Part shown: one piece after another, positions 10,912 through 14,611 of the stretch | Numbering within the stretch: the first letter of the stretch is position 1 | Layout: the number at the start of each line of letters is the position of its first letter | Virus record (IMG/VR): IMGVR_UViG_2698536484_000013 | Span: 1 to 17,868 of that record | Direction: 5' to 3' (one strand) | Source: a virus | Lineage: Duplodnaviria; Heunggongvirae; Uroviricota; Caudoviricetes | DNA: 17,868 nt | The notes under the pieces: model-generated | Database searches by the model: none | Told to the model about the DNA's origin: nothing | Seen by the model: only the letters and a program-made list of their open reading frames with translations | Made by a program: the position numbers and the translations under genes

Positions 10912-11585
10912 TGGAACCCACAATTTATCACCGTATCGACGGTACCAAATACAGGAATGTCTGGGTTGTTGGTGATCTGCATGGTTGCTACACCAGACTG
11001 ATGTCCGAACTCCATCGTGTGGATTTTGACCCGGCGCAGGATTTACTGATATCGGTCGGCGACCTTATCGATCGCGGTACTGAAAATGTCGAATGTCTGG
11101 AACTATTGCAGATGCCCTGGTTCAGGGCAGTGATGGGGAACCATGAGCGGTTGATGCTCGATGCGTTAAGTCCTGATGGCAACGTGAATAACTGGCTAAT
11201 GAATGGCGGACAATGGTTCTTCATGCTGGACACTGATCAGGAAATATTAGCCAGGGCGCTGGTGGAGCTGGTAAAGCGTCTGCCCTATATCATTGAGTTG
11301 AACACCGGGCAAGAAACTATCGTTATAGCCCATGCCGACTATCCGGATAATGAATACCAATTCGGTAAGGAGGTGCCGCTTTTCAACGTTGTCTGGGCGC
11401 GCGAGCGTATCAGTGATTCGATGGATGATATTGGTGGCGAAATTTCGGGCGCAGATCGTTTTATCTTTGGTCACACTCCGGTGAAAAGCCCGAAGACATT
11501 CTGGGATCAGCAGTATATCGACACTGGTGCCGTATTTTGCGGAAACCTGACATTGATGAAAGTGAAAGGTGATGGTGCAGCATGA
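10908..11585 (+). CDS. Ser/Thr protein phosphatase, lambda-PPase (NinI)-like metallophosphoesterase
   Basis: GDLHGC, GDLIDRG and GNHE metallophosphatase motifs; near-collinear with lambda phosphatase as recalled ([20 protein letters not shown]...[14 protein letters not shown]). Start ATG 10908 overlaps the upstream stop; the ORF track start 10893 is less likely. Would correspond to the P1 phosphatase gene if the P1-like context holds. Confidence 0.9.
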
Positions 11586-12283
11586 AGATTGCTTTAGTTT
11601 TTCGCTCTGGTGGTGACTATAACGCTTCCGATGTGCAGTGGCTGGTTAATCAACTGCCAAAAGGCTATGAAATTATTTGCCTGACAGACCTGAAGCGTTT
11701 ACATGTACCTGGCGTCAAAGTTGTCCCATTGATCAACCAGTGGCAAAAGTGCCGTGGCTGGTGGGCGAAAATCGAGTTGTTCCGACCGGATATAACCGAT
11801 GATCTGTTCTATCTGGATTTGGACACGGTTATTGCCGGTGATATACGCCCAATCCTAGAGCATCCACCAACCAGCTTCACCATGCTTAGGGATTTTTACC
11901 ATCCACAATATCGTGGCAGCGGTGCCCTGTGGATACCAAATAGTGTTAAAGCGCATATCTGGAGTTCATTCTGGCAAGATCCGGAAGGTTGGATTTCTCG
12001 TTGTGTCACTACTGAGTGCTGGGGTGACCAGGGGTTCTTACGAAAGGTTATGGGCGATGATACACCAGCATTTCAGGATCTGTATCCAGGATGGTTTGTA
12101 AGTTACAAGGCCGATGTTGTGGAACCTGGTTCAAAATATGCGAGCGCGCGTTACTCCAGGGGGAATGGGGCATTACCAAAAGACTGCCGAATAATCTTTT
12201 TCCACGGCAAACCGCGACCTCGCGAAGTGTCAGAGGATTGGCTTCCCCTTATCAGCTCATTTTTTGAGCGAGAATCAGAATAA
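11582..12283 (+). CDS. GT-A fold glycosyltransferase-like protein (GT8-like: DxD and HxxGxxKP motifs)
   Basis: 233 aa; N-terminal [21 protein letters not shown], DxD in [12 protein letters not shown]-terminal FFHGKPRP resembling the GT8 HxxGxxKPW motif; ATG overlaps the phosphatase stop (ATGA). Family assignment by motif only. Confidence 0.75.
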
Positions 12284-12284
12284 T

Positions 12285-12301
12285 ATTGCTCTAATAATTC
12301 C
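12285..12301 (+). promoter_or_regulatory. C1-operator-like 17-mer ATTGCTCTAATAATTCC (first 13 nt identical to the recalled P1 consensus)
   Basis: Directly follows the stop codon at 12283; forms the left arm of an inverted pair with the site at 12334-12350. Confidence 0.5.
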
Positions 12302-12310
12302 ATATTTTTA

Positions 12311-12339
12311 AAGCGTGATGTACACTCATCACGTTTTTT
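12311..12339 (+). terminator. Rho-independent terminator
   Basis: CGTGATG-tacact-CATCACG perfect 7 bp stem followed by TTTTTT; preceded by AAAG. Confidence 0.7.
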
Positions 12340-12350
12340 ATTAGAGCAAT
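12334..12350 (-). promoter_or_regulatory. C1-operator-like 17-mer in inverse orientation (reverse complement ATTGCTCTAATAAAAAA)
   Basis: Overlaps the terminator T tract; 14 bp upstream of ATG 12365. Confidence 0.5.
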
Positions 12351-12364
12351 CTACAAGGTGCACT

Positions 12365-12583
12365 ATGTGGCCATTCCGACGGAAATATCACTACTGGCTG
12401 ATCGCCTTTGTTACGCCGACCGGCGGTATCAGGCATGTCATCACCAGGTATCGCAACAAGAGACTCACCTTAGCCAGAATTTTACAGGCTGCCATAGGTG
12501 AGGGACTGGATACAAATTGCGTAGTCCTTCCTCCTTCATACTTAGGAAAAATGACCGAAGCACAAGCTAATACGGAACTTTGA
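12365..12583 (+). CDS. Hypothetical small protein (72 aa)
   Basis: AAGGTG 6-7 nt upstream of the ATG; stop is 1 nt before the next start (12585); no recognisable motif. Confidence 0.45.
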   Translation: MWPFRRKYHYWLIAFVTPTGGIRHVITRYRNKRLTLARILQAAIGEGLDTNCVVLPPSYLGKMTEAQANTEL

Positions 12584-12584
12584 A

Positions 12585-13847
12585 ATGAGCACTTCAGCAC
12601 AAAACCAATCAATCGAAAATGTATCTATCCCTGATGTCCTGAATGCCGGTATCCCGGCCATTATCCAGAACATCCGGGCCGCGCAACGCCGCGTTAGTTG
12701 TGATGACCTCACAGCACGTTTTTTTGATAATGCGGTTCAGTCAGCGGAGATGCTTCACGCACAGCTTATTGATGTTTATAACGCAGAAGCTGATAGCCAT
12801 AACTCCCTGGTAGATGCAGCTGAAAATATGCAGTTGGATCTCGGTCTGAAGGGTAAAGAAATTGAAGAGCTTCAGCTGCAAATTGAACATTTGAAACGCC
12901 AGCAACAGGACGCGATCGACGATGCGACGCATGACGCCAACCAGCGTGCTGATAATGCCGAACGTATAAGCATTGAGCTGGAAACAAAACTCAATGGAAT
13001 GACCGCGATGGTTGAACTGCGGAACTCACAGATTTCAACGCTAAAATCTCAATATAAAGAGATCATGAAACTTGATCCTTTTAACCTTGAGAAACGCTAT
13101 AACAAAGCTAAAAGCGAGCGACAGGAACTGCGTAAGCAGGTCGCCGACCTTAACCAACAGCTCAAAAAAACTATTAAAGATGCAAGCGAAGCGCGCGTGG
13201 CATTTGCTAATAAAAAAGCAGAGGTTACCGCGCTGGTTAATGAGAATGCCAAATTTGCGACGCTCAAGAAGGAAATGTATGGCATTACTGAGCGCCGTTT
13301 CCCTGCAAGCAAACTTCATCCGACGTTAGGGCAAATCTCCTTCTTCCCGCGCCTCCTGGCTTATGGGATCTCATCGCCTAAAGAGTTCAATAACGAGCGT
13401 CCTTATATCGTTTCTAAGCTGGACTTTGCTTATCAGTTCTGCTGCGACATGGGCTATGCCATTGATATCCGAATCAACGAATGGTTGATGCCAAACTTCC
13501 AGCCGCTGGCCATTTTCCGCGAGTTCCAGCCGGAAGGTTGGGTAGAGTTCTTCCATGAATTGATCTGTAAAGAGATGGAAAGCCGCCGCCCGGAACTGGT
13601 CCGCCGTGTCGAGTGGGCGCAAGAGGTTATGTTGGCAGATGCAGAGCTGCCGTTCGAACCGGAATTTATTGATGATCTGGCAGCTAAAGGGCTGCATACC
13701 CTGTTTGATGTGGTTACCCGCCGTCATGAGCAGTTGGTTGTCGAATTGGGTTTAGAGGAAACAGCGGCAAGAAGACTTCTCGATGTTTGCTATGCACGTA
13801 GCGATGCATGGGAAAAAGAGAACGGCGGCACTATTTACGTTCGCTGA
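12585..13847 (+). CDS. Coiled-coil protein with C-terminal globular domain (function unknown)
   Basis: 420 aa; residues ~60-230 are heptad-rich (LQLQIEHLKRQQQD..., RQELRKQVADLNQQLKK); C-terminal half aromatic/Cys rich; followed by a strong terminator. Confidence 0.85.
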   Translation: MSTSAQNQSIENVSIPDVLNAGIPAIIQNIRAAQRRVSCDDLTARFFDNAVQSAEMLHAQLIDVYNAEADSHNSLVDAAENMQLDLGLKGKEIEELQLQIEHLKRQQQDAIDDATHDANQRADNAERISIELETKLNGMTAMVELRNSQISTLKSQYKEIMKLDPFNLEKRYNKAKSERQELRKQVADLNQQLKKTIKDASEARVAFANKKAEVTALVNENAKFATLKKEMYGITERRFPASKLHPTLGQISFFPRLLAYGISSPKEFNNERPYIVSKLDFAYQFCCDMGYAIDIRINEWLMPNFQPLAIFREFQPEGWVEFFHELICKEMESRRPELVRRVEWAQEVMLADAELPFEPEFIDDLAAKGLHTLFDVVTRRHEQLVVELGLEETAARRLLDVCYARSDAWEKENGGTIYVR

Positions 13848-13867
13848 CAGTTACAGTGTCACTTTTA

Positions 13868-13900
13868 ATGCTGGTGGAGTGCGCCCACCAGCATTTTTTT
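13868..13900 (+). terminator. Rho-independent terminator
   Basis: ATGCTGGTGG-agtgcgc-CCACCAGCAT 10 bp perfect stem followed by TTTTTT. Confidence 0.75.
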
Positions 13901-13919: not shown

Positions 13920-14426
13920 TTGAGTATTTTCAATAAACATGCACACCAGGAACGTCCGTATATCGTCATAGTCGATATTGATGGAACAATATCAGAGGCA
14001 ACTGAAGACAGACTGCATTTGCTTCCGCCACCAGGTAAAGGTGCATTAACAAAGGACTGGAACGAGTTTAATCTCGCCTGTGACACCGATACTCCCATTA
14101 CTCCAGTTATTGATATGGTGCGCCAGTTATTTAACGTTTACACGGTCTGGTTTGTAACCGGGCGCTGTGAGATCGCAAGGGATAAAACACGAGCCTGGCT
14201 GCGGAAGTACGTAACAAACGGGGCTGAGCCTTTGCTATCTATGCGTCCTGCCACCGATGACACAAATGACGGCCCAGCAAAGATTGATCTCCTTAAGAAA
14301 ATTGGTCTAAGTAAAATCGCGTTCGCGCTGGAAGATAAGATTGAAGTGGCGCGTGTTTTCAGGAGGCACGGCGTGCTTACGTTAATGGTCAGGGAGTATG
14401 AAAATGCGCTTCTTCACCAACAATAA
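13920..14426 (+). CDS. HAD-superfamily phosphatase (DxDGT motif)
   Basis: 168 aa; motif I VIVDIDGTISE near the N-terminus, motif II VWFVTGR, downstream Lys and acidic motifs (DLLKK, LEDK). The only in-frame start upstream of motif I is TTG 13920, with GAGGAGGG SD. Confidence 0.75.
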   Translation: MSIFNKHAHQERPYIVIVDIDGTISEATEDRLHLLPPPGKGALTKDWNEFNLACDTDTPITPVIDMVRQLFNVYTVWFVTGRCEIARDKTRAWLRKYVTNGAEPLLSMRPATDDTNDGPAKIDLLKKIGLSKIAFALEDKIEVARVFRRHGVLTLMVREYENALLHQQ

Positions 14427-14442
14427 TTGCTCTAATAAATCT
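14426..14442 (+). promoter_or_regulatory. C1-operator-like 17-mer ATTGCTCTAATAAATCT (16/17 to recalled P1 consensus)
   Basis: Begins on the last base of the HAD gene stop codon; best of the four matches. Confidence 0.55.
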
Positions 14443-14524
14443 TGATTTTTAAAACAGAGAAAGTGAAAATAAAAACATGCCGCAAGGCGCGGCATGTATC
14501 CAATCAATCACAGGAGCTGAAAAT

Positions 14525-14611
14525 ATGAACACGGCATTCAAAATCATTATGGCCGCGATCTATTTCTGGCTGTTCTCTATCACTTTTGGCGGCATCGTCG
14601 CACATGGGTAA
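14525..14611 (+). CDS. Possible 28-aa hydrophobic micropeptide
   Basis: MNTAFKIIMAAIYFWLFSITFGGIVAHG; CAGGAG SD 8 nt upstream of the ATG; one predicted transmembrane helix. Too short to be confident. Confidence 0.3.
   Translation: MNTAFKIIMAAIYFWLFSITFGGIVAHG

What the first reader, a model, noticed from the sequence alone, without database searches (positions are those of the whole stretch)
12284..12351. Composite element: two inverted operator-like sites flanking a terminator hairpin
Immediately after the stop at 12283 comes an operator-like site, then a perfect 7-bp-stem terminator whose T tract is itself the reverse-orientation operator-like site, 14 bp before the next start codon. The outer 13-bp arms (ATTGCTCTAATAA and TTATTAGAGCAAT) are a perfect inverted repeat, so the region could form a long cruciform or bind a repressor on both sides of the terminator. 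That is an arrangement suited to switchable read-through into the downstream genes.
Basis: seen in the sequence. Interest (0 to 1): 0.5.

Follow-up and report, generated by a model that had tools for sequence, protein, structure and literature searches.

The report
Phage P1 repressor operators Op86a/Op86b
This is the already-annotated control region of the phage P1/P7 pmgR-pmgS genes, where two binding sites for the phage's C1 repressor bracket a promoter and a terminator hairpin, so it is an ordinary if very compactly built feature.

Summary
The window is a P1/P7-like phage, 99.0-99.8% identical to P1, P7 and SJ46. The two 13-nt arms are the cores of two C1 repressor operators that the P1 and P7 GenBank records already annotate. 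They are OpmgRa/Op86a (12285-12301, +) and OpmgRb/Op86b (12334-12350, -), which control pmgR-pmgS. The perfect inverted repeat exists because two copies of an asymmetric operator face each other.

The hairpin between them (12310-12337, followed by T6) is not annotated in either record. It looks like a real intrinsic terminator for the upstream pmgL-pmgQ operon:
- Its stem keeps pairing through two compensatory double substitutions in two diverged lineages.
- The 66-bp block is better conserved than the flanking genes.
- Published P1vir RNA-seq shows a sharp change of kinetic class exactly at the pmgQ|pmgR junction.

The promoter's -35 lies in Op86a and its -10 in the left arm of the hairpin. 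The inferred start is in the loop, so pmgR transcripts would escape the terminator.

Verdict: already known, low interest.

The parts
11582..12283 (+). pmgQ (P7: hdmD), the last gene of the upstream pmgL-pmgQ operon. Its stop codon TAA is at 12281-12283.
   Evidence: ORF list. It is collinear with the annotated P1 pmgQ and P7 hdmD.
12285..12301 (+). C1 repressor operator OpmgRa (former Op86a; P7 Op(sht[a])), sequence ATTGCTCTAATAATTCC.
   Evidence: 14 of 17 matches to the consensus. It is annotated as protein_bind 'phage repressor C1' at the homologous position in P1 and P7. It is conserved in the diverged lineages L004 and JK004.
12286..12291 (+). -35 hexamer TTGCTC of the predicted sigma-70 promoter PpmgR, which lies inside Op86a.
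   Evidence: P1 annotation. The same position is used at other C1-controlled promoters.
12309..12314 (+). -10 hexamer of PpmgR, 17 bp after the -35. It reads TAAAGC here and TAAAAC in P1 and P7, and it overlaps the left arm of the hairpin.
   Evidence: P1 annotation. Positions 25-30 counted from the operator start carry a conserved TAAGT-like motif in most of the 16 P7 operators. It is a weak match to the consensus and was not listed by the promoter scan.
12310..12337 (+). Terminator hairpin. Left arm AAAGCGTGATG (12310-12320), loop TACACT (12321-12326), right arm CATCACGTTTT (12327-12337). The inferred PpmgR start site (about 12321-12322) lies in the loop.
   Evidence: RNA fold of -13.4 kcal/mol with z = -6.3. 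Two compensatory double changes in L004, L061 and JK004. It ranks 19th of 212 hairpin-plus-T-run candidates in 87.6 kb of P7. The start site is inferred only.
12334..12339 (+). T6 tract of the terminator. It is the same DNA as positions 12-17 of Op86b on the other strand.
   Evidence: Read from the sequence and the operator match.
12334..12350 (-). C1 repressor operator OpmgRb (former Op86b; P7 Op(sht[b])), sequence ATTGCTCTAATAAAAAA on the minus strand. It lies at about +13 to +29 of PpmgR.
   Evidence: 14 of 17 matches to the consensus. It is annotated in P1 and P7. It is conserved in L004 and JK004 apart from position 1. It lacks the T-rich/TAAGT promoter motif downstream in its own orientation.
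12355..12360 (+). Shine-Dalgarno-like AAGGTG for pmgR.
   Evidence: Read from the sequence. AAGG is kept across the lineages in alignment A1.
12365..13847 (+). The controlled operon, pmgR (12365-12583; P7 shtA) and pmgS (12585-13847; P7 shtB).
   Evidence: ORF list and annotations. pmgR is essential, with unjoined heads and tails in the knockout (PMC9024508). Both genes are early-expressed in P1vir RNA-seq.
13867..13895 (+). Strong terminator-like hairpin plus T7 that would close the pmgR-pmgS unit.
   Evidence: Terminator scan. RNA fold of -18.1 kcal/mol.

Best explanation
The 66-bp block at 12285-12350 is the regulatory junction between two co-directional phage P1/P7 operons.

**Operators.** The block holds two monovalent 17-bp operators for the P1 C1 immunity repressor, Op86a on the + strand and Op86b on the - strand. 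Because they face each other, they create the 13-bp perfect inverted repeat.

**Promoter.** Op86a contains the -35 of the sigma-70 promoter PpmgR. The -10 follows 17 bp later, inside the left arm of the central hairpin. Transcription is inferred to start in the hairpin loop.

**Terminator.** The hairpin plus T6 acts as an intrinsic terminator for transcripts arriving from the upstream pmgL-pmgQ operon, which is driven by a late promoter. Transcripts that start at PpmgR lack the 5' arm of the hairpin, so they are not terminated.

**Second operator.** Op86b overlaps the T tract and sits at about +13 to +29 of PpmgR. It is taken to be a second, downstream operator that tightens repression or acts as a roadblock.

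**Behaviour.** In a lysogen, C1 occupies both sites and pmgR-pmgS is silent. When C1 is inactivated the promoter fires early. The terminator keeps pmgR-pmgS insulated from the later burst of upstream transcription.

**Status of each step.**
- Shown: the identity of the operators, conservation of the hairpin structure, and early, independent expression of pmgR and pmgS.
- Inferred: the exact start site, the efficiency of termination, and the role of Op86b.
For: **Identity**
- The window is 99.0-99.8% identical to P1, P7 and SJ46 across this region.
- The P1 and P7 records annotate both arms as C1 operators that control pmgR/pmgS (P7: the sht operon). The P1 record also annotates PpmgR.
- The consensus ATTGCTCTAATAAATTT is quoted in PMC8546580. 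It matches 4 times in the window against 0.06 expected.

**Promoter layout**
- Sixteen P7 operators were aligned in their own orientation. They share a T-rich run and then T25 A26 A27 G28 T29, which is 17 bp after TTGCTC.
- Op86a fits this pattern. Op86b does not.

**Hairpin as a selected structure**
- Two lineages were found through PmgS protein homology, a search that did not use the DNA pattern. PmgS is 68.6% identical in the Salmonella plasmid L004 and 69.3% identical in Cronobacter phage JK004.
- Both lineages keep the same 66-bp span and both operators. They also keep a stem whose sequence differs by G-C to A-T and A-T to G-C double changes plus wobble changes.
- The block is 79-91% identical between lineages. 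The flanking genes are 66-78% identical and the spacer to the ATG is 43-67% identical.
- The fold is -13.4 kcal/mol (z = -6.3) and is followed by T6. It ranks 19th of 212 candidates in P7.

**Expression** (PMC8201110 Table S1; wild-type logFC at 10 and 30 min)
- Upstream genes: pmgQ 7.05 and 11.66, similar to pmgO, pmgP and ppp.
- Downstream genes: pmgR 9.02 and 10.81; pmgS 9.99 and 11.70.
- The upstream genes therefore rise by 4.0-4.6 log2 units and the downstream genes by only 1.7-1.8.
- The smaller rise matches other operons that carry an annotated C1 operator upstream, such as uhr-hrdC-dmt and pmgT-V.
Against: - No 3'-end or start-site mapping is available, so the terminator and the start in the loop are inferred.
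- The promoter hexamers are weak. TTGCTC matches 3 of 6 positions. TAAAGC matches 3 of 6 and lacks the usual final T. The consensus promoter scan did not list the site.
- The RNA-seq values are log fold changes that are not normalised for gene length. At 30 min pmgR and pmgS are about as high as pmgQ, so substantial read-through cannot be excluded.
- Within the P1 clade, several single sequences carry uncompensated stem mismatches.
- The compensatory changes are shared by L004, L061 and JK004. They may therefore represent only one or two evolutionary events.
- The hairpin loop keeps the form TAnnnT in all three lineages (TACACT, TATCAT). It lies at the same offset from the operator start (+36) as the -10 of Plpa lies from Olpa. 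The real -10 could therefore be the loop. That would move the start to about 12333 but leave the model otherwise unchanged.
- Whether the 2004 P1 genome paper already marks a terminator here could not be checked, because the paper is not held.
Confidence: 0.72

Rival explanations
1. C1 bound on both sides of the hairpin would change termination efficiency, so that expression of pmgR-pmgS is switched through read-through from the upstream operon.
For: - The T tract and Op86b are the same DNA, so a bound protein would sit exactly where termination occurs.
- Both operators and the hairpin are conserved together as one 66-bp block.
Against: - pmgR and pmgS are high at 10 min, when pmgQ is 4- to 8-fold lower in logFC. 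They also do not follow the late rise of pmgQ. Their expression therefore does not depend on read-through.
- Op86a carries the promoter layout shared by the other C1-controlled promoters and is annotated as such.
- By inference, a repressor bound at Op86a would stall an incoming polymerase before it reaches the hairpin. Binding would add to the block rather than relieve it.
- The upstream operon is itself under C1 control through the annotated operators O26 (former Op82) and Oppp (former Op83).
Confidence: 0.08
2. The hairpin is not a terminator. The inner palindrome would be a promoter element or a protein-binding site. For example, the loop TAnnnT could be the true -10 with the two operators at -35 and +1, or a dimeric factor could bind the 11-bp arms. 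The T tract would then be there only because it belongs to Op86b.
For: - The loop is TACACT in P1-type sequences and TATCAT in both diverged lineages. The A at position 2 and the T at position 6 are kept.
- The loop starts 36 nt after the start of Op86a. The -10 of Plpa starts at the same offset from Olpa.
- The annotated -10 is poor, and in JK004 it reads TGAAGC.
Against: - The stem sequence changes between lineages while pairing is kept. That fits a folded RNA better than a sequence-specific protein site.
- No acceptable -35 lies 16-18 bp upstream of the loop. The candidates TTCCAT, TTTTAA and TTTTAC match 2-3 of 6 positions.
- Op86b departs from the operator consensus at positions 15-17 (AAA in place of TTT), and this is exactly the change that makes an uninterrupted T6 on the + strand.
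- The RNA-seq discontinuity also needs insulation from upstream late transcription.
Confidence: 0.12
3. The outer 13-bp arms have a function as a structure in their own right. This could be a DNA cruciform, or a long RNA hairpin (13 + 11 pairs) in read-through transcripts that serves as a processing or stability signal, for example for RNase III.
For: The 76-nt RNA folds into the nested double helix at -26.9 kcal/mol with z = -8.9. The arms are invariant across lineages.
Against: - The arms are invariant, so they give no covariation evidence at all. Their conservation is already explained by C1 binding.
- The complementarity stops exactly at operator position 13. In L004 and JK004 position 1 of Op86b no longer pairs with its partner.
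- Twelve unpaired nucleotides lie on one side only of the junction.
- If the inner terminator works, few transcripts would ever contain both outer arms.
Confidence: 0.04

Closest known systems
Phage P1 operators OpmgRa/OpmgRb (former Op86a/Op86b) with promoter PpmgR, and P7 Op(sht[a])/Op(sht[b])
   Same: They occupy the same locus between pmgQ/hdmD and pmgR/shtA, with the same orientation and spacing. Both 17-bp operators are identical in sequence. The records are GenBank AF234172 and AF503408.
   Different: There is one base difference inside the block. The window has G at 12313 where P1 and P7 have A. This turns an A-T pair of the stem into G.T and changes the -10 from TAAAAC to TAAAGC. No terminator feature appears at this locus in either record, nor in the other stretches of them read here.
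P1/P7 bivalent C1 operators: Op(ban[a])/Op(ban[b]) in P7, and Oc1ab (former Op99a/b) in P1
   Same: They also consist of two oppositely oriented copies of the asymmetric C1 operator acting on one promoter.
   Different: In the bivalent operators the two copies overlap by 6 bp, giving a 28-bp unit. Here the copies are 32 bp apart and enclose the promoter -10, the start site and a hairpin. They are annotated as two monovalent sites.
Other single-operator C1-controlled early promoters of P1/P7, such as Op(rep)/kilA-repL, Op(c4), Op(dam) and Op88/pmgT
   Same: The operator sits directly after the preceding stop codon. TTGCTC serves as the -35, followed by a T-rich spacer and a TAAGT/TAAAAC -10 17 bp later. 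The controlled genes are expressed early in P1vir infection.
   Different: These promoters have no second inverted operator downstream. Where a terminator-like hairpin follows the preceding gene (ant, upstream of Op(rep)), it lies ahead of the operator as a separate element and is not interleaved with it.
Promoters flanked by two operators, such as E. coli gal OE/OI and lac O1/O3 (from general knowledge; not tested here)
   Same: A repressor binds both upstream and downstream of the core promoter.
   Different: Those systems use dimeric or tetrameric repressors on symmetric sites with DNA looping over 90-115 bp. From recollection of the 1980s-90s P1 literature, C1 binds asymmetric sites as a monomer. 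The centres of the two operators here are only 49 bp apart. No cooperativity or looping was tested.

Membership tests
P1-type C1 repressor operator (17-bp asymmetric site) | Match to the consensus ATTGCTCTAATAAATTT | tested here: met
   Both copies match 14 of 17 positions, with all mismatches at positions 14-17. Every position that is invariant among the 16 annotated P7 operators (T3, C5, C7, T8, A9, A10, T11) is present in both copies.
P1-type C1 repressor operator (17-bp asymmetric site) | Positional homology to an operator annotated in a reference P1-like genome | tested here: met
   The window is 99.0-99.4% identical to P1 and P7 here. The sites coincide with OpmgRa/OpmgRb and Op(sht[a])/Op(sht[b]).
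P1-type C1 repressor operator (17-bp asymmetric site) | Physical binding of C1 protein | not testable with these tools
   This rests only on the records' annotation, 'C1-controlled operator ... former Op86a/b'. The primary binding papers are not held in the library.
P1-type C1 repressor operator (17-bp asymmetric site) | A c1 repressor gene in the same genome | not testable with these tools
   The window corresponds to P1 positions of about 69.9-87.7 kb, and c1 lies at 93.2-94.1 kb, outside it. The nearest full genomes (SJ46, P7, P1) are P1-like phages.
Intrinsic (Rho-independent) terminator | Stable G+C-containing stem-loop followed immediately by a U tract on the transcribed strand | tested here: met
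   The stem has 7 perfect pairs (4 G-C) and extends to 11 pairs. The loop is 6 nt and the fold is -13.4 kcal/mol, followed by T6. On the minus strand the tail is CTTTAAAAA, so the element is essentially one-directional.
Intrinsic (Rho-independent) terminator | Placed at the 3' end of a transcription unit, on the same strand | tested here: met
   The hairpin starts 27 nt after the pmgQ stop codon, on the strand of the pmgL-pmgQ operon.
Intrinsic (Rho-independent) terminator | Stem pairing maintained by compensatory change in relatives | tested here: met
   Two pairs carry double changes (G-C to A-T and A-T to G-C) in L004, L061 and JK004. In the inner helix 97% of cells are paired. Few independent events are involved.
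Intrinsic (Rho-independent) terminator | Transcripts actually end there | tested here: inconclusive
   Gene-level RNA-seq shows a discontinuity at the junction that is consistent with insulation. There is no 3'-end mapping, and the values are not normalised for gene length.
Sigma-70 promoter (PpmgR) | -35 and -10 hexamers with 16-18 bp spacing | tested here: inconclusive
   TTGCTC-N17-TAAAGC gives only 6 of 12 matches and was not listed by the scan. The same layout recurs at most C1 operators, and the downstream genes are expressed early.

The most novel reading that the evidence does not exclude
The interleaving of operator, promoter and terminator may be more than compaction. C1 bound at Op86b, directly on the T tract, could act together with the hairpin as a roadblock-assisted terminator. 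Alternatively, the two C1 molecules 49 bp apart could bridge across the hairpin-forming DNA. Insulation between the two operons would then be tighter in lysogens than in lytic growth. That would be a repressor-tuned terminator not described for P1.
Probability: 0.08. Interest if true: 0.45.

Novelty: already known. Interest (0 to 1): 0.15.

Why it matters
It matters little beyond annotation. The two sites are long-known C1 operators of phage P1, so nothing new is learned about how immunity works.

The modest added value is threefold:
- The hairpin between the operators, which is not annotated in the P1 and P7 records, is probably a conserved terminator that separates a late operon from an early one.
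- The promoter appears to be threaded through the terminator, so that its own transcripts escape termination.
- pmgR is essential (PMC9024508), yet pmgR and pmgS behave as early genes preceded by a C1 operator rather than late genes.

These points could help anyone who engineers P1 phagemids or P1-like phage-plasmids and needs clean transcription-unit boundaries.

Tried and rejected
- **Genome-contig scan with PmgS.** It returned only two near-identical E. coli loci, so it added no diversity.
- **Exact-pattern scan of viral contigs.** It returned more than 119 loci, nearly all P1-type. They were useful for population variants, but the result is biased because the arms were fixed by the pattern. 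The unbiased diverged relatives came from tblastn with PmgS.
- **Phage D6.** Its PmgS is 19.6% identical and the gene order differs, since pmgR is not preceded by pmgQ. It has no equivalent block, so it was not used.
- **Rfam.** Nothing was found at gathering thresholds apart from a tRNA, and only chance-level hits appeared in 12200-12450.
- **Built-in promoter and terminator scan.** It listed neither PpmgR nor this hairpin. I traced the missing terminator to stem extension into the T run and checked it with my own scans.
- **The 2004 P1 genome paper and 'Op86' literature.** These are not held, so I could not check whether a terminator was already drawn at this locus or read the original binding data.
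- **Leftward promoter at Op86b.** Rejected, because its downstream sequence (CGTGATGAGTGT) lacks the T-rich/TAAGT motif shared by the other operators.
- **Wobble direction of stem variants as a test of which strand folds.** Seven transitions are wobble-compatible on the + strand and three on the - strand (hand count from the variants). That is too few to decide.
- **Termination efficiency from RNA-seq logFC.** Abandoned, because after length correction pmgR and pmgS give contradictory estimates.

Full report
**What the window is**

A megablast of 11400-13900 finds 19 phage records covering the whole query at 98.4-99.8% identity. They include Salmonella phage SJ46 (99.8%), P7 (99.4%) and P1 (99.0%). 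The window is therefore a P1/P7-like punavirus. From about position 1400 onward it is collinear with P1 coordinates 69.9-87.7 kb. The finding lies in the 81-nt gap between pmgQ (P7 hdmD, 11582-12283) and pmgR (P7 shtA, 12365-12583). pmgS (P7 shtB, 12585-13847) follows directly.

**Checking the observation**

- The stop codon TAA is at 12281-12283.
- The outer arms are ATTGCTCTAATAA (12285-12297) and TTATTAGAGCAAT (12338-12350). They are 13/13 complementary with 40 nt between them.
- The inner stem is CGTGATG / CATCACG, with loop TACACT. It extends to 11 pairs (AAAGCGTGATG / CATCACGTTTT) through one G.T and three A-T pairs.
- T6 lies at 12334-12339, and 14 nt separate the right arm from the ATG at 12365.

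None of this is expected by chance.
- A 13-nt perfect inverted repeat within 60 nt occurs 0.03 times per dinucleotide-shuffled window.
- A perfect 7-bp stem followed by T6 occurred in 0 of 300 shuffles.
- The hairpin RNA folds at -13.4 kcal/mol, with z = -6.3.

**What the arms are**

The 17-bp asymmetric operator consensus of the P1 C1 repressor is ATTGCTCTAATAAATTT (quoted in PMC8546580). It has four matches with at most 3 mismatches in the window, against 0.06 expected.
- 8661-8677 (-), annotated in P1 as O26 (former Op82).
- 12285-12301 (+).
- 12334-12350 (-).
- 14426-14442 (+), annotated in P1 as OpmgT (former Op88).

The P1 record AF234172 annotates the two sites of the finding as [quoted passage not shown] and "OpmgRb; former Op86b". 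It also annotates a predicted sigma-70 promoter PpmgR. In window coordinates its -35 is at 12286-12291 and its -10 at 12309-12314. The P7 record annotates the same pair as Op(sht[a]) and Op(sht[b]).

The "operator-like" sites are therefore known operators. The perfect inverted repeat follows simply from two copies of one asymmetric site facing each other. Complementarity stops at operator position 13 because the two copies diverge from each other at positions 14-17.

**The promoter**

I aligned the 16 C1 operators annotated in P7 coordinates 1-87648, each in its own orientation.
- Conservation continues beyond the 17-bp site. Positions 19-25 are T-rich, and then come T25 A26 A27 G28 T29 (12, 10, 10, 8 and 9 of 16).
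- This is a -10-like element 17 bp after TTGCTC at positions 2-7.
- Op86a fits the pattern. It reads TAAAAC in P1 and P7 and TAAAGC in the window, because of a minority A-to-G variant at 12313.
- Op86b does not fit. It reads CGTGATGAGTGT at those positions, so it is not the operator of a leftward promoter.

A start site about 7 nt after the -10 would fall at about 12321-12322, inside the hairpin loop. This is an inference, and no start-site data for P1 were found. On that reading Op86b covers about +13 to +29.

An alternative -10 is the loop itself.
- The loop keeps the form TAnnnT in all lineages (TACACT or TATCAT).
- It starts 36 nt after the start of Op86a. The -10 of Plpa starts at the same offset from Olpa.
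- No usable -35 precedes it.

With either -10, transcripts from this promoter would lack the left arm of the hairpin.

**The hairpin**

No terminator feature appears at this locus in the P1 or P7 record, nor in the other stretches of them that I read. I could not read the 2004 genome paper to see whether one is drawn there.

*Form and position*
- The hairpin has the form of an intrinsic terminator on the + strand. It starts 27 nt after the last stop codon of the pmgL-pmgQ operon, which P1 annotates as driven by the late promoter LPpmgL plus predicted sigma-70 promoters next to C1 operators.
- In a scan of 87.6 kb of P7 for a hairpin plus a run of at least five T, it ranks 19th of 212 by energy. 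It sits among clean gene-end hairpins.

*Conservation*
- Two diverged lineages were found by PmgS protein homology, without using the DNA pattern. They are Salmonella plasmid NZ_CP077703 (PmgS 68.6% identical) and Cronobacter phage JK004 (69.3%).
- Both keep the same 66-bp span, both operators and the T6.
- Their stem has a different sequence: ACATGGTG/CACCATGT in the plasmid and GCATGGTG/CGCCATGT in JK004.
- Counted on alignment A1, the inner helix has two pairs with changes on both sides (G-C to A-T and A-T to G-C), several wobble changes, and 97% of cells paired.
- The 66-bp block is 79-91% identical between lineages. The flanking genes are 66-78% identical and the spacer to the ATG is 43-67% identical.
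- Within the P1 clade the 5 nt just after Op86b (12351-12355) are highly polymorphic, whereas variants inside the block are rare, mostly seen once.

*Caveats*
- The compensatory changes are shared by the diverged lineages, so they represent few independent events.
- Some single sequences carry uncompensated mismatches.

**Expression data**

Table S1 of PMC8201110 gives log fold changes for every P1vir gene at 10 and 30 min of infection. The wild-type values are below.

| Gene | 10 min | 30 min |
|---|---|---|
| pmgO | 7.39 | 11.77 |
| pmgP | 6.99 | 11.32 |
| ppp | 6.95 | 11.49 |
| pmgQ | 7.05 | 11.66 |
| pmgR | 9.02 | 10.81 |
| pmgS | 9.99 | 11.70 |

- The dksA host shows the same pattern.
- The kinetic class changes exactly at the pmgQ|pmgR junction. 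The upstream genes rise by 4.0-4.6 log2 units, which is late behaviour.
- pmgR and pmgS are already high at 10 min and rise by only 1.7-1.8 units. Other operons with an annotated C1 operator upstream behave similarly (uhr-hrdC-dmt 2.4-2.6, pmgT-V 1.9-2.4).
- This supports an early promoter immediately upstream of pmgR. It is also consistent with insulation from upstream late transcription.
- It is not proof of termination. The values are not normalised for gene length, and my attempts to compute a read-through fraction gave contradictory answers for pmgR and pmgS.

The best-supported picture is a compact junction built in this order:
1. The pmgQ stop codon.
2. Op86a, which contains the -35.
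3. The -10, in the left arm of the hairpin.
4. The start site, in the loop.
5. The right arm of the hairpin.
6. The T tract, which is also the end of Op86b.
7. The Shine-Dalgarno sequence and then pmgR.

Upstream transcripts contain the whole hairpin and terminate. Transcripts from PpmgR do not contain it and continue. C1 on both operators keeps the promoter shut in the lysogen.

- The downstream genes are expressed earlier than the upstream ones and independently of them.
- A bound repressor would hinder an incoming polymerase, not help it.
- The upstream operon has its own annotated C1 operators, O26 (former Op82) and Oppp (former Op83).

A functional long cruciform or long RNA helix has no positive evidence. 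The arms never vary, so they cannot show covariation, and C1 binding already explains their conservation.

**Comparison and novelty**

The element is a member of the P1 C1 operator family, and specifically it is Op86a/Op86b.
- It differs from the bivalent operators at ban and c1, where the two copies overlap by 6 bp.
- It differs from the single-operator early promoters, which have no second operator downstream.
- Functionally it resembles promoters flanked by two operators, such as gal or lac. No cooperativity was tested.

The operators and the promoter are already annotated, so the finding is already known. The terminator reading and the escape of PpmgR transcripts are small refinements. Interest is low.

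Noticed in passing
window 12351-12355: The 5 nt between Op86b and the pmgR Shine-Dalgarno sequence are strikingly polymorphic among P1-like sequences (CTACA, CTATA, CCATA, ATACA, TTACA, CCAAA, CTGCA and others). The adjacent 66-bp block is nearly invariant.
   Followed up: partly
P7 operators in L129, L130 and L002; window 8661-8677, 12285-12314 and 14426-14455: C1 operators carry a conserved extension beyond the 17-bp site. It is a T-rich run followed by TAAGT/TAAAAC at positions 25-30, so operator and promoter form one unit of about 30 bp.
   Followed up: partly
window 14475-14497 (- strand) and 14525-14611 (+ strand): A terminator-like hairpin that faces leftward lies between Op88 and pmgT (ACATGCCGCG...CGGCATGT, then T-rich on the minus strand). 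Just after it is a 28-codon hydrophobic ORF, read by eye from the sequence as MNTAFKIIMAAIYFWLFSITFGGIVAHG, preceded by GGAG. No gene is annotated there in the P1 record.
   Followed up: no
window 211-1038: A 275-aa SPFH/Band 7 family ORF (Pfam E = 1e-30) occupies the place where P1 has tciA-tciB-tciC. The left end of the window therefore differs from P1 in gene content.
   Followed up: partly
window 1066-1141: There is a tRNA with anticodon CAT. ARAGORN calls it tRNA-Met, while the P1 record annotates the homologous gene as tRNA-Ile2, trnI.
   Followed up: no
window 12365-13847; PMC8201110 Table S1: pmgR (essential, with unjoined heads and tails in the knockout) and pmgS (called a putative prohead scaffolding protein in the D6 record) behave as early genes in P1vir RNA-seq, not late ones. 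That is unexpected for morphogenetic functions.
   Followed up: partly
window 9725-10387 and 10285-10911: pmgO and pmgP overlap by 103 nt. Both give sub-threshold hits to the MptE-like (6-hydroxymethylpterin diphosphokinase) family, and the RefSeq records label pmgQ as a glycosyltransferase. Several genes with the 'putative morphogenetic' label may therefore encode enzymes.
   Followed up: no
L008 (phage D6) 2400-2450: In D6 a strong terminator hairpin after the pmgR homologue is flanked by direct copies of ATTGCAT (TAATTGCATAAAAACCCGCC...GGGTTTTTTGTTTATTGCATC). This might be a D6-specific operator arrangement.
   Followed up: no
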